From Candidatus Hydrogenedens terephthalaticus JGI OTU-1 (GTDB lineage: Bacteria > Hydrogenedentota > Hydrogenedentia > Hydrogenedentales > Hydrogenedentaceae), in assembly GCA_000493945.1 (NCBI GenBank), contig AWNW01000001.1, positions 51,055-115,054 of the forward strand: a stretch of DNA of 64,000 nt, written 5' to 3'. The notes under the pieces were generated by a model, which saw only the letters and a program-made list of their open reading frames with translations, was not told the origin of the DNA and made no database searches. Below are positions 10,409-20,076 of this stretch, piece after piece; position 1 is the stretch's first letter, and each line of letters opens with the position of its first letter. Both the position numbers and the translations under genes were made by a program.

Positions 10409-12898
<2,490 letters not shown>

Positions 12899-13037
12899 TT
12901 AAGTAAAGGTATTATATCAAAATTTAATAGTAAAGGGCAATAATAAACAGGATAAAATGAATGCAATATTTGAAGAATAACACAATTTTATTAATAGGAA
13001 AAATCGCTTGCAAATAGGCATCAATCAATAATTTAGG

Positions 13038-13066
13038 AGAAACAAAAATGGTGGGCGATACTGGAC
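13038..13066. repeat. 29-bp direct repeat agaaacaaaaatggtgggcgatactggac, identical to the tRNA-Val 3' end plus 11 nt of flank; the distal att-like boundary of the island
   Basis: Exact 29/29 match to 19986-20014. The sequences diverge immediately outside the repeat. Confidence 0.8.
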
Positions 13067-13457
13067 GATTTCAGAACTTTTTTTGAGCAAAATCTTGACA
13101 CTGACTGATATAAAATTACATCCCCGTTTTGCTCAAAGATTGCGGGCAAAAATTTCCTTCCCCTTGCATCCCTCCAATTTTTATCCACTCGTTAAAAGTT
13201 TTTTACATATTTTTTACACCGTTATCTTAATTCTTAAAAATTTTATACATATAACTTTTTGTATCTATGCAAAGTTGCCCGAGACTGCTCCCTGTTCTTG
13301 TCGAAGGGCAACGGAGAGCAATTTAGGAGAAGGCGGTACTCCACCCGAATTGCATATCTATTGTTGTGCGATGGGCAGAGTGCCCCTTCAATTTTTGTCT
13401 TCATTTCTTAATCCTTCCTTATCTTCCACCTTAGCATAGGACGGTAAAGGCGGTTTT

Positions 13458-13688
13458 TCATTCTTCATCCTCGTATAAATCATTTAATGTTTGCTTAAGA
13501 CTCTGAATATTTCTATATTCTGCTTCGCTTGATAATCTTGAAACATCATATTTCTGTGCAATCTTGATGTCCTTAAAAGAAAGACAATTCCCATGAACAA
13601 ATATTTCTCTTATCTGACTTCCCACAAAAAAATTTCTGCTTATCAAGATTTTGACTTTCAATAAGGAAATTGAGCAATGCTTTATCAA
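13458..13688 (-). CDS. hypothetical small protein, possibly frameshifted or a degraded gene remnant
   Basis: 76-aa ORF. A second frame directly upstream (…YFWSNLRKTKPIIDKALLNFLIESQNLDKQKFF) would fuse to it across an A7/T7 homopolymer at about 13626-13632, suggesting a roughly 105-aa protein interrupted by a frameshift. Confidence 0.25.
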   Translation of the reverse strand: MIKHCSISLLKVKILISRNFFVGSQIREIFVHGNCLSFKDIKIAQKYDVSRLSSEAEYRNIQSLKQTLNDLYEDEE

Positions 13689-13735
13689 TAATCGGTTTTG
13701 TTTTTCTTAAATTGCTCCAAAATATATGTGTTTCT

Positions 13736-14026
13736 CTAAACCTGCTTTTTCCAAATTTTCTTGGCTAAAATTTTTAAGTCTTTATAATTGCCTTTAATAA
13801 GAGATTCCTTTTTCTTTCTTGACCAGCCCTGCACTTGTTTTTCTCTATAGAATGCTTCATCAATTCTATCATATTCTTCATAATAAACAAGTTCTACAGG
13901 TAAACGGGTTTTAGTATAGTTGGCACCTTCACCATTTTGATGCTGCCATAATCTTCTTTCAAGATTAACAGTACTTCCGGTATAATAACTACCATCAGCA
14001 CATTTTAGAATGTACATGTATCCCAT
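13736..14026 (-). CDS. GIY-YIG nuclease family protein (UPF0213 / YhbQ-like)
   Basis: MGYMYILKCADGSYYTGSTVNLERRLWQHQNG carries the canonical GIY...YIG motif with the conserved Arg/Glu. 96 aa. It is the last gene of the R–Fic–M–GIY-YIG operon. Confidence 0.8.
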   Translation of the reverse strand: MGYMYILKCADGSYYTGSTVNLERRLWQHQNGEGANYTKTRLPVELVYYEEYDRIDEAFYREKQVQGWSRKKKESLIKGNYKDLKILAKKIWKKQV

Positions 14027-14050
14027 AGGTTACCTCTGTCTTATCATCGG

Positions 14051-15721
14051 TCACTTCGATACGGCCTTCGGCCTACTCAGTGACCGTTTCACTGGCCGCT
14101 GAGTAGTGGAGTGTTTTAAAACGGTTGCTGAGTAGTCCCAAAGGGACGTATCGAAGCCGGTTGCTGAGTAGTCCCAAAGGGACGTATCGGAGCCGGTTGC
14201 TGAGTAGTCCCAAAGGGACGTATCGGAGCCGGTTGCTGAGTAGTCCTGAAGGGATGTATTGGAGTTGGTTGCTGAGTAGTCCCGAAGGGATGTATTGGAG
14301 TCGGTTGCTGAGTAGTCCCGAAGGGATGTATTGGAGTCGGTTGCTGAGTAGTCCCGAAGGGATGTATTGGAGTCGGTTGCTGAGTAGTCCCGAAGGGATG
14401 TATTGGAGTCGGTTGCTGAGTAGTCCCGAAGGGACGTATCGAAGCAACCGTTTCGTATAGCAGTTATATATTCTCTAATCACATTCAAGGCATCGGGCAA
14501 GTCGTTTTTATCTATGGGTCTGCGTTGTGCTCCAAGGTCATAGCCGTCATTTTCAATCTTTACAAATAAAATAGAATCGGTTTTCTTTGCGAGCTGTTTA
14601 TCCATCAAAAGAATTGAAGTCTTAACACCCGAATATGGCTGAAAAACACCGGCAGGAAGCGATACAATCGCATAGAGATAATTTTCAACCAGCATTTTTC
14701 TGAGTTGTTTGTATGCATTAGCACTTTGGAAAATGATACCTTCAGGAACGATCACTGCGGCTCTACCGGTTGGTGTGAGGTGTTCTGCAATGTAATCCAC
14801 AAACAGCACCTCGCTGCGGTTGCTCTGCACGCTGAACTTTTTATGTGGTTTGATTCCGCCTTTCGGCGACATAAAAGGAGGATTGGCAAGAATCACATCG
14901 GCGTATTCATTCCAGCGGTCTTCGCTGGTAAGGGTATCATATTCAAATATTTGAGGCTGAACAAAGCCGTGCAGATACATATTTACAAGTGAAAGCCGTA
15001 CCATATCCGGCGAAATATCGTAGCCCTTGAAATTTTCAAAAAGTTTTTTGCGTTCCTCTACACTAAGCAAATCACCCCTGTAACCGCCATTATTGCCATT
15101 CTGTGTTTTATATTTTGGTGATGTATTTTCTTTTAGAATATGTTTGTATGCAGAAATCAAAAATCCAGCAGTACCGCAGGCAGGGTCTAAAACGGTTTCA
15201 TGTTTCTGTGGATTAACAATTTCTACCATAAAATCTATAATATGCCGTGGTGTTCTGAATTGACCCGCATCGCCTTGACTGCCGAGTACCGAAAGCAGAT
15301 ACTCAAAAGCATCGCCCAGTCGTTCGGAATGGTCGTATGTAAATTCATTGATGGTTTTGAGAAAAAGTTTTAATGTTTCGGGGTCGCGATAAGGAAGATA
15401 GGCATTTTTAAAGATATCACGGAAAAGTTGAGGCAGATTTGGATTCTGATTAAGATTTACAATGGCTTCGCTGTAAAGGGCGAGCATTTCATAACCGCCG
15501 ATGTGTGGGTCAAATATCTTGTTCCAGGCATAGCGTTCATAATTGCCGGTGAAAAAACTTGGTTTTCCGCCGAGTTCAATGGCTTCCTTGTCCATGTCAT
15601 CCATGAACTTATACACAAGCGCAATAGTAATCTGCTCCACCTGACTTTTAGGGTCAGGCACTTTGCCCACAAGTATATCGCGGGCTGTATCAATTCTTCG
15701 TTTTGTTTCGTTGTCTAACAT
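14051..15721 (-). CDS. hsdM: type I restriction-modification HsdM-like N6-adenine DNA methyltransferase with a C-terminal 12-aa tandem-repeat extension
   Basis: HsdM N-terminal domain, motif X/I (GQFRTPRHIIDFMVEIVNP...VLDPACGTAGFL) and motif IV NPPF. From about residue 432 the frame runs through nine repeats of TSLRDYSATDSN-like units encoded by 36-bp DNA repeats. Confidence 0.75.
   Translation of the reverse strand: MLDNETKRRIDTARDILVGKVPDPKSQVEQITIALVYKFMDDMDKEAIELGGKPSFFTGNYERYAWNKIFDPHIGGYEMLALYSEAIVNLNQNPNLPQLFRDIFKNAYLPYRDPETLKLFLKTINEFTYDHSERLGDAFEYLLSVLGSQGDAGQFRTPRHIIDFMVEIVNPQKHETVLDPACGTAGFLISAYKHILKENTSPKYKTQNGNNGGYRGDLLSVEERKKLFENFKGYDISPDMVRLSLVNMYLHGFVQPQIFEYDTLTSEDRWNEYADVILANPPFMSPKGGIKPHKKFSVQSNRSEVLFVDYIAEHLTPTGRAAVIVPEGIIFQSANAYKQLRKMLVENYLYAIVSLPAGVFQPYSGVKTSILLMDKQLAKKTDSILFVKIENDGYDLGAQRRPIDKNDLPDALNVIREYITAIRNGCFDTSLRDYSATDSNTSLRDYSATDSNTSLRDYSATDSNTSLRDYSATDSNTSLRDYSATNSNTSLQDYSATGSDTSLWDYSATGSDTSLWDYSATGFDTSLWDYSATVLKHSTTQRPVKRSLSRPKAVSK
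14122..14445. repeat. tandem array of nine 36-bp direct repeats (consensus cggttgctgagtagtccc[a/g]aaggga[c/t]gtat[c/t]g[g/a]ag[c/t]) plus a partial copy upstream
   Basis: The period is exactly 36 bp. There are two sub-variants (gacgtatcggagcc type and gatgtattggagtc type), and the first and last copies are identical. All six frames are open across the array. No unique spacers are present, so this is not CRISPR. Confidence 0.9.
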
Positions 15722-15781
15722 AAAGATTCCTAATCATTTACATATATTGAAAATTCGTATTTTTTCACTATATCTTTGCTT

Positions 15782-15814
15782 ATATGTCGAAAAAAAGCGT
15801 TTTTTTCGACATAT
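15782..15814. promoter_or_regulatory. perfect 33-bp palindrome atatgtcgaaaaaaa-gcg-tttttttcgacatat in the fic–hsdM intergenic gap, with a third half-site-like copy (acatgtcgaaaat) at 15822-15834
   Basis: 15-bp arms are perfectly inverted around a GCG centre. The element could form a strong hairpin (internal terminator or attenuator) or serve as an operator separating hsdM/GIY-YIG expression from hsdR–fic. Confidence 0.4.
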
Positions 15815-15835
15815 CAAAAAAACATGTCGAAAATT

Positions 15836-16954
15836 TCAAATTTTTTTATCATATTCATGGCTTTCATTAGCGGATAAATCAAAATTTTTAAAAAGTAAGA
15901 ACAACGGCTCATTAATGTAATAATTCGATTTACCGAATTTTTCCATTTTCAGTAAACCTCCTTCTACAAGTTGGTCCAAGTAATTTGCTGCTGTCTGGCG
16001 GTGCACCTTTAAGTCTTTTTGCAAAAACTCGATTTTTGTATAAGGTTGCTTAAAAAGATTATTCAATAAATCCTGAGAGTAAAATTTATAGTTGTTCCTG
16101 ATTTTTTGTTTATACTCCTGCATAAGTTCTTTTATTTTGTTTATCAGAATAATAGTGCTATTCGAGGTAACTTCAACTCCTCGTAACAGATAGAGAATCC
16201 ATGCCTCCCAGTTCTCTTTATCCCTAACCTCCTGTAAAAGTCTATAATAATCTAATTTTGTTCTAATAATATAACTGCTTAGGTAAAGTACTGGTAAGTC
16301 GAGCAAACCTTTTTGAATAAGGTAAAGAATATTGAGAATTCTTCCTGTTCTGCCATTTCCATCATAGAATGGATGAATTGATTCAAATTGAAAATGAATG
16401 ATAGCCATTTTAATTAAGGGATCAATCGGATGAAGAGAGTCATTGTTAATATAATCAATCAAATTATTCATTAATGAAATAATTTGTTCATGACCCTGAG
16501 GTGGAATATATACAGTTTTTCCAGTATCGAGGTTCTTTAATTCTGTTCCTGGGAGAGTTCTATAGCCAGCATTATTATGAATAATTGTTTCTTGAATTTT
16601 TAAAATTAAGTTGTTTGAAATAATAAATTTTTTATTGTGCATTAGTTCAAAACCTTCCCGAACAGCCTGAGCATATCGCTGGACTTCTTTAGCTGCAGGG
16701 TTTGATATAAAGTTTTCAAAAAGATTATCCTTATAAATCTCGTCATGCGTGGTAATGATATTTTCAATAGCCGAGCTGTCTTTTGCTTCAAGTAAAGGCA
16801 AGGTATAGAGCAATATGGTTTCATTAGGAATTGTTTTAGAAACACCTTTTAATTCCGCAAGATATCTATGTGCAGCAGCAAGCTGTTTAAGTACTGCTTT
16901 TGTCTCCACATCTTTTTTTGGCGGAAGTGGTGTTAAAATGTAGTTATCATTCAT
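15836..16954 (-). CDS. fic: Fic/DOC family protein (AMPylation-type Fic domain with a C-terminal winged-helix domain)
   Basis: Canonical Fic motif HPFYDGNGRTGR (HxFx[D/E]GNGRxxR). 372 aa. It starts 12 bp after the hsdR-like stop. Confidence 0.85.
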   Translation of the reverse strand: MNDNYILTPLPPKKDVETKAVLKQLAAAHRYLAELKGVSKTIPNETILLYTLPLLEAKDSSAIENIITTHDEIYKDNLFENFISNPAAKEVQRYAQAVREGFELMHNKKFIISNNLILKIQETIIHNNAGYRTLPGTELKNLDTGKTVYIPPQGHEQIISLMNNLIDYINNDSLHPIDPLIKMAIIHFQFESIHPFYDGNGRTGRILNILYLIQKGLLDLPVLYLSSYIIRTKLDYYRLLQEVRDKENWEAWILYLLRGVEVTSNSTIILINKIKELMQEYKQKIRNNYKFYSQDLLNNLFKQPYTKIEFLQKDLKVHRQTAANYLDQLVEGGLLKMEKFGKSNYYINEPLFLLFKNFDLSANESHEYDKKI

Positions 16955-16966
16955 ATTTAAAAAACC

Positions 16967-19495
16967 TCACGCTACAAACTTGTTCAATGGCACAAAATCT
17001 TTAATATACTCAGGAATTGAACTCCGCAGTTCAGGTGGTAATTTCTTGAATGCTTCACCGTAGGGTGAAACATTCAAAAGAGCAAAATTCTTATTGTCTA
17101 TGATTGCCCTGAAATCAGCATCAAGAATGTAAGCATTAAAGACTGTTTTGGCATAATTAAAATACTCTTCTTTGGGCAAATATCTGCTGTCAAATTTATC
17201 AAACTCTTCATCCAGAAGTTCATTTTTTGTCTTAAAGTAGGGGATAATCCCAAATATCTTCTCTATGATTTCCCGCATGGAAACACGGCGGTCAATCTGA
17301 ATGGAGGAACGAAGTTTTTCGAGTGTAAAATATTCCTCGGGCTTATCAAGTATATGCTTTTCAAGATAAGCCAAAAGTTCGTCCCACTTACCTTCCTCTG
17401 CCTGCTCTTTAAGAATCGGATGTTCAATGATAGTTTTTTCAAATTTTTCAAAATACATTCTATCAATCTTCATTCCGTCGGGACCGATAACAAAATGTTC
17501 GAGTTTTATTATCTGGTCTGACTGTGAACTGTCATAACTGTAAATGCCTGATGGCTCTCTAAATTCTAAAGCGGTATTTTCTCCTGAGCCTGGTTTTGGC
17601 AGTTTGAGTACTTCATCATAATTAAACTTTTCTTCAAAATACTCGCAGTTAGCAAAAAAATCAAACATTTTGAAATTTTCTTTTTGCTTCTCGCCAATCT
17701 GCACTTTTTGTTGCAGATCAGTAAGATCAGTAGCGAAGTTGTATTTTCTTGTGCCTCTACCTTTAATCTGAATAAAATCGGTAGGAGAAAAAATGGGTCG
17801 CATCAGGCAAAGATTGAGAATATCAGGACAGTCATAGCCCGTTGTCATCATGCCGACAGTTACGCAAACGCGGGTTTTGCTGGTTTTATACGAGGGGTTA
17901 AAATTACCCGTGCCTGAGAGGCGGTTATTTGTAAAATTGATGGTAAACTGTTGAGAATCAACAATTCGGGATGTAACTTGAATGGCAAAATCTGAATTGT
18001 ATTTTCCAGGAAACATTTGATGAGCCATTTCATTCAATATTTGGGTAATTTTCGCTGCATGGTTTTGCGAAACACAATAGACAATGGTTTTTCCAATCTC
18101 TCCGCTTATCGGATCCCTGTAAGCATTTTCCAAAAAGGCTTTGCAAAATTCGCGGTTAGTGCTTTCTGAAAAGAACTTTTTCTCAAAATCCTTATGAATA
18201 AAAATTTCTTCCACTTCTTCGCCTTCATCATTTTGTATGGTTACAAAGTAGCCTTTATCGGAAAGCAGTTGGGTTGTAATTTCTGTCCGTGCATCTACAA
18301 CTACAGGATTTATGAGAAATCCTTCTTTTACGCCATCGAGTAAGGAATATCTGAAAGTGGGCTCTCCATTTTCACAGCCAAAGGTTTTATAGGTATCTAA
18401 AAGCAAACGGCGTTCGAGTTGTCGCGGATCATTTTCACCAAGTTTTGATGTATCAATATGTTTTAGATAGTCTTTGGGTGTTGCGGTGAGTCCCAGTTTA
18501 TAACCTATGAAGTATTCAAAAACTGCTCTGCTGTTTCCGCCAATACTTCGATGTGCCTCATCAGAGATTACCAGATCAAAATCATCAGGTGCGAAAAGTC
18601 TTTTATATCTGTTCTTTGACAAAAAGGTTTGCACAGTTGAAACCACAATCTCTGCTTTTCGCCAGTCATCACGGTTTTCTTTGTAAATAGCTGTTTGATA
18701 GTCATTTCTTAAGTATGCGACAAAGGCTTTATATGCTTGGTCTTCAAGTTCGAGCCTATCGACTAAAAACAAAACACGCCGAGCATTTCCTGTTCGAAGG
18801 AACAACTTAATAACCGCAGCCGATACAAGTGTTTTTCCTGTACCTGTAGCCATTTCAAAAAGAAAGCGATCTTTTCCTTCTTTCACAGCATTTTGAATGG
18901 ATTGTATTGCCAATACTTGATATCTTCTTAAAAATTTTAACTTATTTTGTTCAATGAAACTTTTTCTGGTTTCTTCATTTATGTAGGAAGGGTCGTTTTT
19001 ATAATCCGGTTTTTGTGTAAGTACAATGTAATCATCATTGACTGTTTCACTGACTAATCTTTTTCTATCCGGCTTAAAAGTAGAATATCCCTTTACTGTT
19101 TCTGGCGAGGGGAAACGGCTTATAATATGAGGGTTGCCTCTTTCCAAATCCCAGAAATAATGAATATTCCCATTTGAAAGTATAATAAAGCGGCAATTTT
19201 GAGAAATAGCATACCGTCGAGCTTGTTCTTTACCAAAAAGAGGGTTTTTATCTTCTGCTTTTGCTTCTAAGACAATAAAGGGGAAGCCCTGCTCATCGAG
19301 TAATAAAAAGTCTATAAATCCGTTGCTTGTCTTCTCAAAATCCTCTCCAAACTCATTTAACTTTTCTATTGTGAGTTTGACATTATTTTCAAGAAGAATA
19401 TTAGCCTTGCCAGATTCATTATCAAAGAAACGCCATCCGGCTTCTTCAAGAAGTTTATTGATTTTTATCCTTGCTTTTGCTTCTTTCTCTGCCAT
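16967..19495 (-). CDS. hsdR: type I restriction enzyme R-subunit-like (HsdR-family) nuclease-helicase
   Basis: N-terminal HsdR_N / PD-(D/E)xK nuclease (IDFLLLDEQGFPFIVLEAK) followed by SF2 helicase motifs I (EMATGTGKT) and II (VISDEAH), and a C-terminal helicase domain. 842 aa. Confidence 0.7.
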   Translation of the reverse strand: MAEKEAKARIKINKLLEEAGWRFFDNESGKANILLENNVKLTIEKLNEFGEDFEKTSNGFIDFLLLDEQGFPFIVLEAKAEDKNPLFGKEQARRYAISQNCRFIILSNGNIHYFWDLERGNPHIISRFPSPETVKGYSTFKPDRKRLVSETVNDDYIVLTQKPDYKNDPSYINEETRKSFIEQNKLKFLRRYQVLAIQSIQNAVKEGKDRFLFEMATGTGKTLVSAAVIKLFLRTGNARRVLFLVDRLELEDQAYKAFVAYLRNDYQTAIYKENRDDWRKAEIVVSTVQTFLSKNRYKRLFAPDDFDLVISDEAHRSIGGNSRAVFEYFIGYKLGLTATPKDYLKHIDTSKLGENDPRQLERRLLLDTYKTFGCENGEPTFRYSLLDGVKEGFLINPVVVDARTEITTQLLSDKGYFVTIQNDEGEEVEEIFIHKDFEKKFFSESTNREFCKAFLENAYRDPISGEIGKTIVYCVSQNHAAKITQILNEMAHQMFPGKYNSDFAIQVTSRIVDSQQFTINFTNNRLSGTGNFNPSYKTSKTRVCVTVGMMTTGYDCPDILNLCLMRPIFSPTDFIQIKGRGTRKYNFATDLTDLQQKVQIGEKQKENFKMFDFFANCEYFEEKFNYDEVLKLPKPGSGENTALEFREPSGIYSYDSSQSDQIIKLEHFVIGPDGMKIDRMYFEKFEKTIIEHPILKEQAEEGKWDELLAYLEKHILDKPEEYFTLEKLRSSIQIDRRVSMREIIEKIFGIIPYFKTKNELLDEEFDKFDSRYLPKEEYFNYAKTVFNAYILDADFRAIIDNKNFALLNVSPYGEAFKKLPPELRSSIPEYIKDFVPLNKFVA

Positions 19496-19985: not shown

Positions 19986-20014
19986 AAGAAACAAAAATGG
20001 TGGGCGATACTGGA
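19986..20014. repeat. 29-bp direct repeat (tRNA-Val 3' end plus flank); the proximal att-like boundary of the island
   Basis: Identical to 13038-13066. Confidence 0.8.
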
Positions 20015-20076
20015 CTTGAACCAGTGACCCCTTGCATGTCAAGCAAGTACTCTAACCACCTGAGCTAATCGCCCAC
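19997..20076 (-). tRNA. tRNA-Val (anticodon GAC)
   Basis: Reverse complement GTGGGCGATTAGCTCAGGTGGTTAGAGTACTTGCTTTGACATGCAAGGGGTCACTGGTTCAAGTCCAGTATCGCCCACCA. It has a 7-bp acceptor stem GGGCGAT/ATCGCCC, T-arm ACTGG-TTCAAGT-CCAGT, anticodon stem CTTGC/GCAAG, GAC in the loop, and an encoded CCA. Hand-folding gives an 8-nt anticodon loop (TTTGACAT), one T more than the canonical TTGACAT. Confidence 0.8.

What the first reader, a model, noticed from the sequence alone, without database searches (positions are those of the whole stretch)
14051..14460. Nine 36-bp tandem repeats are fused in-frame to the C-terminus of the HsdM-like methyltransferase
Seen directly: nine 36-bp tandem units occur in two sequence sub-families, plus a degenerate tenth copy. 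The methyltransferase frame reads through them as (T/S)SL(R/W)DYSATDSN-type 12-aa repeats, about 125 aa in total. The repeat length is a multiple of three, so copy-number change by recombination or slippage would vary protein length without a frameshift, which is a possible phase- or length-variation mechanism. The array occupies the position where hsdS would normally begin. All six frames are open across it, so it may instead be a recent non-coding expansion that merely extends the ORF. A GGCCTTCGGCC tetraloop hairpin lies just 3' of the array, at 14068-14078.
Basis: seen in the sequence. Interest (0 to 1): 0.6.

Follow-up and report, generated by a model that had tools for sequence, protein, structure and literature searches.

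The report
Hairpin-repeat array truncating a methylase gene
The nine 36-bp repeats are real, but they are most likely not a protein domain: they are amplified copies of a hairpin-forming DNA unit that travels with a tiny GIY-YIG nuclease gene, and here this cassette has replaced the DNA-recognition half of a restriction-modification methylase.

Summary
The array is real: 9 x 36 bp at 14122-14445, read in frame by the ORF 14051..15721(-). That ORF is a truncated gene. Its homologs are 800-870-aa fused M/S type I methylases, and homology stops at residue ~425, exactly where the repeats begin. No S domain is left in the window. About 0.75 kb (array, one inverted unit, a 96-aa GIY-YIG gene) replaces ~1.76 kb of an intact relative.

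Each repeat is one arm of a structured unit: a 5-10-bp outer stem enclosing YTGAG ... YCGAA, often with an inner GNA-triloop hairpin. The same unit occurs in another phylum, in tailed-phage intergenic regions, and at 2.4/kb versus 0.06/kb around close relatives of this GIY-YIG gene (68 of 80 loci). Its stem covaries (0/500 shuffles). In 24 of 45 distinct loci the next gene downstream is hsdS.

In the methylase frame, 6 of 7 variable positions change the amino acid. No homolog outside this locus carries the repeats. I conclude the "C-terminal repeat domain" is an incidental read-through of an amplified non-coding element. The element family, a REPIN/RAYT-like partnership with a UPF0213 nuclease at hsdM|hsdS junctions, is the interesting part. 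I found no description of it.

The parts
14451..15721 (-). M (methyltransferase) half of a fused M/S type I methylase gene, apparently intact up to residue ~425 (...ITAIRN)
   Evidence: Pfam N6_Mtase 1.9e-51; PADLOC MTase_I 7.9e-97. It is 85-92% identical to the first ~425 aa of 800-870-aa homologs that carry PF01420. tblastn and blastn homology ends at window ~14435-14450.
14122..14445 (+). Nine tandem 36-bp copies of the unit, in the CTGAGTAG...GTATCGAAG orientation on the + strand. This is antisense to hsdM and to the GIY-YIG gene. The internal copies lack the 3' strand of the outer stem, and units 4-8 have a decayed box (GTATTGGAG).
   Evidence: TRF; pattern matches; unit listing and frame analysis. 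An internal unit does not fold better than shuffles (z = -0.04), whereas the terminal unit does (z = -5.0).
14410..14450 (+). Terminal complete unit: CGGTTGC-TGAGTAG-TCCC GAA GGGA-CGTATCGAA-GCAACCG. It is the element boundary next to the hsdM breakpoint.
   Evidence: DNA fold -11 kcal/mol, z = -5.0. Inverted-repeat pair I6, 14048-14066 / 14432-14450. The closest relative L112 has the same end sequence, AAACGGTTGCTTCGATAC.
14087..14121 (+). Degenerate partial unit (GCTGAGTAG only) followed by the AT-rich spacer TTTTAAAA
   Evidence: Sequence. The same layout (partial unit plus AT-rich centre) is seen in phage contig locus L101 and in L112.
14048..14086 (-). Single inverted (gene-sense) unit: CGGTCAC-TGAGTAG-GCC GAA GGC-CGTATCGAA-GTGACCG. 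It ends 21 nt upstream of the GIY-YIG start codon, and its GTGACCG strand supplies the TGA that ends the methylase ORF.
   Evidence: Pattern match on the - strand at 14057-14080. DNA fold -10 kcal/mol, z = -4.1. Together with the last array unit it folds into a long hairpin, -31.1 kcal/mol, z = -6.8.
13736..14026 (-). 96-aa stand-alone GIY-YIG nuclease gene (UPF0213 / prokaryotic Slx1-like minimal domain)
   Evidence: Pfam GIY-YIG 8.9e-19. PDB 1ZG2 (4.4e-16) and 1YWL (2.4e-13), both named 'UPF0213 protein'. At least 487 relatives in metagenomes; the 80 kept are 68-86% identical.
13487..13698 (-). Remnant (3' third) of the 239-aa gene that follows hsdMS in an intact relative. It marks the far edge of the replaced segment.
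   Evidence: blastn, 72% identity over 216 nt to L110 5983-6194, inside the 239-aa gene at L110 5497-6216.
15836..16954 (-). Fic-family gene (SoFic type) lying between hsdR and hsdM; absent from the intact relative L110
   Evidence: Pfam Fic_N, Fic and SoFic-like_C; PADLOC SoFic 1e-118; L110 gene order.
16967..19495 (-). hsdR (842 aa), partner restriction subunit, full length
   Evidence: Pfam ResIII, HSDR_N; PADLOC REase_I. Same length as the hsdR gene of L110 and about 85% identical in DNA.

Best explanation
The 36-bp array is non-coding repeat DNA. It is one arm of a palindromic two-unit element that accompanies a small UPF0213 GIY-YIG nuclease gene, and that arm has been tandemly amplified.

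Shown:
1. The methylase ORF is the M half of a fused M/S type I gene. Its S half and two thirds of the next gene have been replaced by a ~0.75-kb cassette: [9 antisense units][partial unit][1 sense unit][GIY-YIG].
2. The unit is a conserved structured motif, an outer stem enclosing YTGAG...YCGAA, often with an inner GNA-triloop hairpin. Its stems covary.
3. Such units flank close relatives of this GIY-YIG gene as [antisense unit then sense unit] doublets on both sides of the gene.
4. These cassettes most often sit immediately upstream of hsdS in type I operons.
5. GIY-YIG-less copies and other tandem arrays of the unit exist elsewhere.

Inferred:
- The cassette is mobile. It may move by homing or in a transposon-like way, with the structure-specific Slx1-like nuclease acting on the hairpin or cruciform units.
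- It landed in, or recombined into, the M/S linker by an illegitimate event at an AAAC microhomology.
- The arm then grew by replication slippage or unequal exchange between units.
- Antisense units have no stop codon in any frame, so the methylase ORF simply runs through them to a TGA in the sense unit. Any translated tail is a by-product.
- The R-M system has probably lost target recognition.
For: Truncation and replacement:
- Homologs are 800-870 aa with PF01420, and coverage of the query stops at 76-77%.
- No S-domain remnant is found by tblastn.
- The intact relative L110 has hsdR, hsdMS and a 239-aa gene. The window keeps hsdR, the M half and a remnant of the 239-aa gene at 13487-13698. 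L110 has no unit.

Unit structure:
- The terminal and inverted units fold as two-stem hairpins, z = -4 to -5. The doublet has z = -6.8.
- On 150 instances chosen by the core alone, the outer stem is 71% paired versus 52% in shuffles. The covariation score is 0.509 versus 0.191, with 0/500 shuffles reaching it. Slid controls give at most 0.19.
- 42% of inner regions have hairpins of 3 bp or more, versus 3.6% in shuffles. Loops are mostly GAA, GCA, GTA and AAA.

Association with GIY-YIG:
- 314 core matches versus 7 and 13 for two control patterns.
- 68 of 80 loci have a unit within -400..+700 of the gene start, at 2.42/kb versus 0.06/kb outside that zone, in an ordered antisense-then-sense pattern on both sides.
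- The gene is flanked by direct repeats of 50-288 bp made of doublets.

Mobility:
- The closest relative (86% aa identity, L112) has the same left end but truncates a PRiA4_ORF3 gene.
- 26-33-bp duplications of the hsdM 3' end flank cassettes in L182, L185, L188 and L191.
- The downstream neighbour is HsdS in 24 of 45 distinct loci. HsdM lies upstream in 24 loci.

Other arrays and solo copies: L077 has 8.1 x 38 bp in a Sphingobacteriales MAG, intergenic and without GIY-YIG. Twelve of the 80 GIY-YIG loci have arrays. The unit is also found in phage intergenic regions.

No sign of coding constraint: 6 of 7 variable positions are non-synonymous.
Against: - No nuclease activity, cleavage site or transposition event is demonstrated. 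The link between the GIY-YIG protein and the units is association only.
- None of the phage loci that carry the unit encodes a GIY-YIG relative nearby. The units may therefore have a function independent of the nuclease, for example at the RNA level.
- Only one locus with the unit exists in the 64-kb window, so there is no evidence of spread within this genome.
- The cassette here lacks the downstream doublet seen in most relatives.
- A 120-nt block (13362-13481) shared with L112 lies beyond the gene remnant. A single simple replacement event does not explain this.
- hsdR and the M half are still intact ORFs, so loss of function is inferred, not shown.
- AlphaFold places one beta-strand in each repeat, though at low confidence (mean pLDDT 56, single sequence). 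A folded tail is therefore not excluded.
Confidence: 0.72

Rival explanations
1. The repeats are a genuine, selected C-terminal repeat domain of the methylase, and changes in copy number tune or switch its activity (length or phase variation).
For: The array is in frame, the unit length is a multiple of three, and there is no stop until after the array. Two assemblies differ by exactly one unit, 556 versus 544 aa. AlphaFold draws one beta-strand per repeat.
Against: - The protein has lost the whole S/TRD half that its relatives use to recognise DNA.
- No homolog outside this locus has the repeats.
- 6 of 7 variable positions are non-synonymous and radical.
- All three frames of this strand are open, so being in frame is not special.
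- The same units occur antisense, intergenic and in other phyla.
- The AlphaFold model is low confidence: pLDDT is 56 for the best model and 35-49 for the others.
- A 36-bp unit cannot switch the gene on and off by frameshift.
Confidence: 0.06
2. The units are primarily cis-acting RNA elements, for processing, stability or translation control in operons, rather than DNA substrates of the nuclease. On this view the array is a pile of antisense copies with no RNA function.
For: In tailed-phage contigs, most hits with a clear hairpin lie between co-directional genes, with a start codon about 6-60 nt downstream. Some overlap the Shine-Dalgarno sequence (...CGTATCGAAGGAGG...ATG). The sense unit lies 21 nt upstream of the GIY-YIG start here and 24-100 nt upstream in relatives. 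The stem covariation fits RNA as well as single-stranded DNA.
Against: - No Rfam family matches, at gathering or at relaxed thresholds.
- The units nearly always come as inverted doublets, which read the same way (antisense unit then sense unit) on either strand. The apparent sense orientation next to genes is therefore automatic.
- Inner loops are mostly 3-nt GNA loops closed by C-G, including GCGAAGC. By my own knowledge this is a classic very stable DNA mini-hairpin; stable RNA hairpins favour tetraloops.
- The long direct repeats, duplications of host sequence and truncated host genes point to DNA-level mobility.
Confidence: 0.2
3. The array is an assembly artefact, a collapsed or expanded repeat or a chimeric join, and the natural gene has a normal end.
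For: Several assemblies break inside or at the array (L003-L006). Two assemblies disagree on copy number. Units 6-8 are identical, giving 108 bp of perfect repeat.
Against: The same junctions are seen in the NCBI MAG, a JGI metagenome contig, a separate NCBI assembly (GCA_000402275.1) and three Logan read-set assemblies. These junctions are the M half into the array, and the array into the partial unit, the inverted unit and the GIY-YIG gene. The JGI contig is 99.9% identical across 21.6 kb and spans the array. Only the exact copy number is uncertain.
Confidence: 0.03
4. The units are ordinary REP/REPIN elements mobilised by a RAYT (Y1 transposase), and the GIY-YIG gene is a bystander.
For: Long-form units have GTAG directly 5' of a short palindrome, and the units occur as inverted doublets. 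These are the REP/REPIN hallmarks described in PMC3733652 and PMC3116915, as listed.
Against: The gene that the doublets flank is a GIY-YIG gene in 68 of 80 loci, with a 40-fold local enrichment. The short-form units lack GTAG. There is only one locus in 64 kb, whereas REPs are normally numerous. No RAYT was seen next to any copy, although I did not screen all ORFs for one.
Confidence: 0.05

Closest known systems
REP / REPIN elements with their RAYT transposase (Enterobacteria, Pseudomonas)
   Same: Short imperfect palindromes arranged as inverted doublets that can fold either unit by unit or as one long hairpin. A single nuclease gene is flanked by the repeats, and solo copies lie in intergenic DNA. 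The long-form units even carry GTAG next to the palindrome.
   Different: The flanked gene is a ~90-aa UPF0213 GIY-YIG domain, not an HUH/Y1 transposase. The conserved boxes (YTGAG / YCGAA) lie in the hairpin loop. Copy number looks low (one locus in 64 kb). The cassettes sit preferentially at hsdM|hsdS junctions. The units are also on phage contigs and in several phyla, which suggests horizontal rather than vertical inheritance.
Free-standing GIY-YIG homing endonuclease genes (for example the phage T4 seg genes)
   Same: A small GIY-YIG gene inserted between conserved genes of an operon. It recurs at the same relative site in many hosts, with duplicated or co-converted flanking host sequence.
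   Different: Seg and I-TevI-type enzymes are ~200-250 aa with a separate DNA-binding domain. This protein is the bare catalytic domain. It is accompanied by structured repeats, which known homing cassettes lack.
Rickettsia palindromic elements (RPEs) and similar MITE-like repeats that insert in frame into ORFs
   Same: Palindromic repeat DNA whose sequence has open frames, so that host ORFs read through it and acquire extra peptide segments as a by-product.
   Different: RPEs are single ~100-150-bp insertions inside otherwise complete genes. Here the repeat is a 9-copy tandem array at a truncation point and is linked to a nuclease gene.
In-frame repeat variation in type I R-M genes (the 12-bp repeat in the central region of EcoR124 hsdS; simple-sequence repeats in hsdM/hsdS of Haemophilus and Neisseria)
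   Same: Tandem repeats inside type I R-M coding sequence whose copy number can change.
   Different: In those systems the repeat lies in an intact hsdS or hsdM gene and changes spacer length or switches the frame. Here the specificity domain is gone, the unit is 36 bp of a structured mobile-element arm, and no functional output is evident. This comparison rests on my own knowledge of those systems.
'Restriction-linked' cargo genes inside type I R-M operons (Fic, RhuM, Bro-N/KilA-N and others)
   Same: The GIY-YIG gene occupies the same hsdM-[cargo]-hsdS slot. Fic, RhuM, Bro-N and PDDEXK_3 genes are its frequent upstream neighbours.
   Different: Those cargo genes are not known to carry their own flanking palindromic repeats.

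Membership tests
Type I R-M methylase, fused M/S form | N6-adenine methyltransferase domain with catalytic motifs | tested here: met
   PF02384 1.9e-51, residues 133-450. DPACGTAGFL and NPPF are present. PADLOC MTase_I 7.9e-97.
Type I R-M methylase, fused M/S form | C-terminal specificity (TRD, PF01420) half | tested here: not met
   No PF01420 hit. Homologs have it. tblastn with two S halves finds nothing in the window.
Type I R-M methylase, fused M/S form | Adjacent hsdR partner gene | tested here: met
   16967..19495(-), ResIII/HSDR_N, PADLOC REase_I.
Protein tandem-repeat domain | Repeats conserved at the protein level, or present in homologs | tested here: not met
   6 of 7 variable sites are non-synonymous. 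Only the same locus (P0002) carries the repeats among the listed homologs. A search with the tail alone returned nothing, but it also failed to recover its own parent protein, so it is uninformative.
Protein tandem-repeat domain | Confidently predicted fold | tested here: inconclusive
   AlphaFold2 on a single sequence: mean pLDDT 56, pTM 0.45; the other four models score 35-49.
Phase-variable simple-sequence repeat in an R-M gene | A change in copy number shifts the frame or removes the start, switching the gene on and off | tested here: not met
   The unit is 36 bp, a multiple of 3. The 8- and 9-copy alleles both stay in frame.
CRISPR array | Repeats separated by unique spacers | tested here: not met
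   The units abut with no spacing; period equals unit length, 36 bp.
REP/REPIN-RAYT | GTAG (or CGTC) tag next to an imperfect palindrome; inverted doublets | tested here: met
   Long-form units read CTGAGTAG plus a hairpin. Antisense-then-sense doublets are seen. Short-form units lack GTAG.
REP/REPIN-RAYT | Associated Y1/HUH RAYT gene flanked by the repeats | tested here: not met
   The flanked gene is a GIY-YIG gene (PF01541) in 68 of 80 loci.
REP/REPIN-RAYT | Many dispersed copies per genome | tested here: inconclusive
   One locus in the 64-kb window. The whole genome is not available. Up to 4 copies lie on one 29.5-kb phage contig.
UPF0213 / prokaryotic Slx1-like minimal GIY-YIG | Stand-alone ~90-100-aa GIY-YIG domain similar to BH0048 and EF2693 | tested here: met
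   PF01541 8.9e-19 over residues 1-73. 1ZG2 4.4e-16 and 1YWL 2.4e-13. For the family description see PMC1564403.
Free-standing homing endonuclease cassette | Recurrent insertion at one conserved site between host genes | tested here: met
   The downstream gene is HsdS in 24 of 45 distinct loci. Duplications of the hsdM 3' end flank the cassette.
Free-standing homing endonuclease cassette | Sequence-specific DNA-binding domain and demonstrated cleavage of the empty site | not testable with these tools
   The protein is the catalytic domain only. Biochemistry is needed.
Any Rfam RNA family (including hammerhead and other ribozymes) | Covariance-model match | tested here: not met
   Only a tRNA in the window at gathering threshold. 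Only chance-level miRNA hits at E up to 10 over 12850-14600. Nothing in 16 related loci.

The most novel reading that the evidence does not exclude
UPF0213 stand-alone GIY-YIG nucleases, a large family with no known function, are the partner enzymes of a family of structured palindromic units. This would be a GIY-YIG counterpart of the REPIN-RAYT system. The cassettes home to the hsdM|hsdS junction of type I R-M operons and leave solo units in phage and bacterial intergenic DNA. By making breaks and supplying repeats at that junction, they could drive exchange, loss or replacement of specificity (hsdS) modules. The window would then show one such outcome: an S half deleted and one arm amplified.
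Probability: 0.3. Interest if true: 0.8.

Novelty: new variant of a known kind. Interest (0 to 1): 0.55.

Why it matters
For the finding as written, the result is deflationary. The repeat tail on HsdM is a by-product of repeat DNA that cut the gene in half, not a new way of tuning a methylase.

The repeat unit matters more than the tail. It belongs to a widespread, covarying hairpin motif that is tightly linked to a very common nuclease family of unknown function (UPF0213), and it sits preferentially just upstream of hsdS. If that partnership is functional, three things follow:
- UPF0213 proteins would get their first proposed substrate.
- A second nuclease class would join the REP-like 'repeat plus domesticated or selfish nuclease' systems.
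- It would suggest a concrete mechanism for the well-known rapid turnover of type I specificity genes.

There is also a practical point. These arrays break short-read assemblies and create spurious in-frame ORF extensions in annotation.

Tried and rejected
- CRISPR-like array: rejected, there are no spacers.
- Known RNA families, including ribozymes: no Rfam hit in the window or in 16 related loci. I considered a hammerhead-like reading, because CUGAGUAG-stem-CGUAUCGAAG looks superficially like CUGAUGAG-stem-CGAAAC. I dropped it because the G8 position is not kept, there is no third stem, and the Rfam scans returned no ribozyme family at all.
- Genome-collection scan for two CTGAGTAG boxes 30-40 nt apart. 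Of 71 loci, nearly all were unrelated: cyanobacterial heptamer repeats of the GTGCTGAGTAG type, or coding CAG-rich repeats. Only L077 was a true relative. The source species itself was not recovered.
- GIY-YIG relatives next to the phage copies: none found.
- Protein search with the repeat tail alone returned nothing, but it did not even recover its own parent protein. The repeat composition probably defeats the scoring, so the search is uninformative.
- AlphaFold of the tail: low confidence, not decisive.
- Remnants of the S domain elsewhere in the window: none.
- Other copies of the unit in the 64-kb window: none.
- Seven of the ten allowed literature searches and three papers searched for key terms gave no description of UPF0213 genes flanked by palindromic repeats or sited at hsdM|hsdS. 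The library lacks most subscription journals, so this is not proof of novelty.
- Promoter and terminator scan of 13300-15900: nothing above the shuffle expectation.
Full report
**What is there.** Tandem Repeats Finder reports 8.8 copies of a 36-bp unit at 14122-14439 (96% matches, no indels, score 524). A 20-mer from the unit matches nine times against zero expected. Cutting the region in 36-bp steps gives nine full units at 14122-14445. Units 1-3 read ...CCCAAAGGGACGTATCG(A/G)AGC and units 4-8 read ...CC(C/T)GAAGGGATGTATTGGAGT. Unit 9 is a hybrid that keeps the canonical GTATCGAAGC. A partial copy at 14087-14121 keeps only GCTGAGTAG. The ORF 14051..15721 on the minus strand reads through the array as 12-residue repeats. 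Two details of the finding are wrong:
- Only four of the six frames are open: all three on the minus strand and one on the plus strand.
- GGCCTTCGGCC lies at 14063-14073. It is a 4-bp stem with a 3-nt loop, embedded in an eleventh, inverted copy of the unit at 14048-14086.

**The gene is truncated.** The window comes from a Candidatus Hydrogenedens population, judging by the names attached to the gyrA and gyrB clusters. The best homologs of the 556-aa product are 800-870-aa proteins that carry both N6_Mtase and the type I specificity domain PF01420. They are 85-92% identical to the query but cover only its first 76-77%. Residue by residue, homology ends at ...ITAIRN(G), where relatives continue ...KPETFIAEEKPC... 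into the S half and the window continues CFDTSLRDY.... tblastn with two S halves finds nothing elsewhere in the window.

An intact relative (L110) has hsdR, hsdMS (848 aa) and a 239-aa gene. The window aligns to it over hsdR, over the M half up to about 14450, and again at 13487-13698, which matches the last third of the 239-aa gene. So about 1.76 kb of the relative is replaced here by about 0.75 kb: the array, the partial unit, the inverted unit and a 96-aa GIY-YIG gene (13736-14026). L110 contains no copy of the unit. A SoFic-type Fic gene also sits between hsdR and hsdM here but not in L110.

**The repeat is a structured unit.** The terminal unit reads CGGTTGC-TGAGTAG-TCCC GAA GGGA-CGTATCGAA-GCAACCG. 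The inverted unit reads CGGTCAC-TGAGTAG-GCC GAA GGC-CGTATCGAA-GTGACCG. The boxes are the same while both stems differ but stay complementary. Each folds as a two-stem hairpin (z = -5.0 and -4.1). The last array unit plus the inverted unit fold into one long hairpin (-31 kcal/mol, z = -6.8). An internal array unit, which lacks the 3' strand of the outer stem, folds no better than shuffles. The element is thus bounded by inverted units (pair I6), and the array is an internal amplification of one arm.

**The unit exists elsewhere.**
- A scan of one genome per species for two boxes at repeat spacing returned mostly unrelated cyanobacterial heptamer repeats. It also returned one true relative, L077, from a Sphingobacteriales MAG. 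There a single inverted unit (GTCATGC-TTCGATAC-GCAGGC GCT GCCTGC-TACTCA-GCATGAC) and an 8.1 x 38-bp array of the opposite arm lie in an intergenic gap with no GIY-YIG gene.
- A scan of viral contigs for CTGAGTAG-N3-15-CGTAYCGAAG gave 32 loci. Most have a palindromic inner segment and a complementary outer stem of varied sequence. They are real tailed phages with portal, capsid and tape-measure genes. The units lie between genes, often preceded by an inverted copy, and up to four occur on one 29.5-kb contig.
- No Rfam family matches in the window or in 16 of these loci.

**Link to the GIY-YIG gene.** A metagenome scan found at least 487 relatives of the 96-aa protein; the 80 best (68-86% identical) were fetched with flanks. 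Their surroundings are full of the unit, in a long form as above and in a short form (stem-YTGAG-N4-6-YCGAA-stem).
- The short-form core occurs 314 times in 354 kb, against 7 and 13 for two control patterns. Of these, 193 have five or more contiguous stem pairs.
- Units lie within -400..+700 of the gene start in 68 of 80 loci, at 2.42/kb against 0.06/kb outside that zone.
- The order is fixed on both sides of the gene: an antisense unit, then a sense unit.
- On 150 instances chosen by the core alone, the ten flanking pairs are 71% paired versus 52% after shuffling. The covariation score is 0.509 versus 0.191 (0 of 500 shuffles reach it), and slid controls stay at or below 0.19.
- Inner segments of long-form units form stems of 3 bp or more in 42% of cases versus 3.6% after shuffling. 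Loops are mainly GAA, AAA, GCA and GTA.
- The gene is often flanked by direct repeats of 50-288 bp built from these doublets.
- Twelve of the 80 GIY-YIG loci have tandem arrays of units (16 TRF rows in all, which also include L077). None of those twelve is as long as the array here.

**Where the cassettes sit.** The next gene downstream is an HsdS (PF01420) in 24 of 45 distinct loci. An HsdM homolog lies within 3 kb upstream in 24 loci, and other upstream neighbours are typical type I 'cargo' genes such as Fic, RhuM, Bro-N and PDDEXK_3. In L185 the 33 bp that encode the end of HsdM and precede the hsdS start codon are present on both sides of the cassette, and HsdM now ends inside an antisense unit (...GLGFDKLSPRI*). 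Reading into a unit is therefore a general property of these cassettes. L182, L188 and L191 show similar 26-33-bp duplications of this junction region. The closest relative (L112, 86% aa identity) has the same left end (AAACGGTTGCTTCGATAC...), one antisense unit and two sense units. It lies in a different place, where it cuts a PRiA4_ORF3 gene. The protein itself matches only UPF0213 structures of unknown function, 1ZG2 and 1YWL. This is the stand-alone 'prokaryotic Slx1-like' minimal GIY-YIG group described in PMC1564403.

**Coding or not.** In the methylase frame, seven positions vary among units. Six of them change the residue (F/S, D/N, R/Q/W, D/G/N) and one is silent. The canonical box survives only in units 1 and 9 and in the inverted unit. 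Units 4-8 carry GTATTGGAG, as expected for passengers free of either protein-level or motif-level constraint. AlphaFold on the last 159 residues gives a low-confidence model (pLDDT 56) with one strand per repeat, which decides nothing.

**Copy number.** A JGI metagenome contig that is 99.9% identical over 21.6 kb has eight units instead of nine, giving a 544-aa product. A separate NCBI assembly (GCA_000402275.1) and three read-set assemblies break inside or just 3' of the array. A divergent strain (L004) has an extra 30-bp unit whose hairpin is shortened symmetrically to GCTTCGC. The array is therefore real, and its content differs between strains. The 8-versus-9 difference lies within a run of identical units and could be an assembly effect.

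**Interpretation.** Shown: truncation of an M/S gene by a cassette; the structured nature of the unit; its strong association with UPF0213 genes; and the preference of those cassettes for the hsdM|hsdS junction. Inferred: that the nuclease acts on the units; that the cassette is mobile by homing or a transposition-like route; that the array grew by slippage or unequal exchange; and that the R-M system is now blind. The shared AAAC at the breakpoint suggests an illegitimate join.

Not explained:
- units nested inside the loops of other units;
- the absence of GIY-YIG genes near the phage copies;
- a 120-nt block (13362-13481) shared with L112 that lies beyond the gene remnant.

I found no description of this partnership in seven literature searches. 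The library is incomplete, so novelty is provisional.

Noticed in passing
window 15836-16954 (-): A SoFic-type Fic gene (PADLOC SoFic 1e-118) sits between hsdR and the methylase gene. The intact relative L110 has no gene there. Fic genes also accompany the GIY-YIG cassette in at least 7 other loci (L124, L144, L135-138, L152).
   Followed up: partly
window 13362-13481 (-) and L112 3312-3435: A 120-nt non-coding block is 74% identical between the window and the closest GIY-YIG locus. In L112 it directly follows the GIY-YIG stop codon. Here it lies beyond the remnant of the 239-aa gene. It has no Rfam hit and its function is unknown. It does not fit a single simple replacement event.
   Followed up: partly
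L090 (about 480-560), L108, L135, L096: Nested units: the inner hairpin of a long-form unit carries a complete short-form core in its loop, for example TGAGTAG-TCC-TGAGCACAGCGAA-GGA-CGTATCGAA. It looks as if units insert into, or grow inside, other units.
   Followed up: no
L185 2927-2960 and 3404-3440; also L182, L188, L191: 26-33-bp direct duplications of the hsdM 3' end / hsdS start flank the GIY-YIG cassette at 96-97% identity. In L185 the GIY-YIG ORF reads on through the downstream units to a stop just past the hsdS start codon, which it overlaps.
   Followed up: partly
proteins P0003-P0120: The M half of this fused M/S methylase is 82-92% identical in contigs attributed to Bacteroidales, Cloacimonas, Spirochaetota, Brevinematales, Ignavibacteria, Treponema and even Methanofastidiosum. 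The S halves differ. This suggests very recent wide horizontal spread with swapping of specificity modules.
   Followed up: no
L095 8920-11031 (+): A phage portal protein (PF04860) is fused to a C-terminal 2'-5' RNA ligase / LigT-like domain that also weakly matches the anti-CBASS Acb1 family (E = 2.8e-4).
   Followed up: no
L008-L075 (many cyanobacterial loci): The two-box pattern picked up dozens of Nostoc, Calothrix, Anabaena and Desertifilum loci with tandem heptamer-type repeats (GTGCTGAGTAG / TGAGTAG...), often just after stop codons. They are unrelated to the unit studied here.
   Followed up: no
L146 3288-3780: Five 99-bp tandem copies (98% identical) of a complete doublet lie directly downstream of a GIY-YIG gene. 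This is another, differently built amplification of the same element.
   Followed up: no
window 20001-20074 (-): One tRNA gene (Rfam 66.7 bits) lies just beyond hsdR, at the edge of the R-M/Fic/GIY-YIG island. It is a possible island boundary.
   Followed up: no
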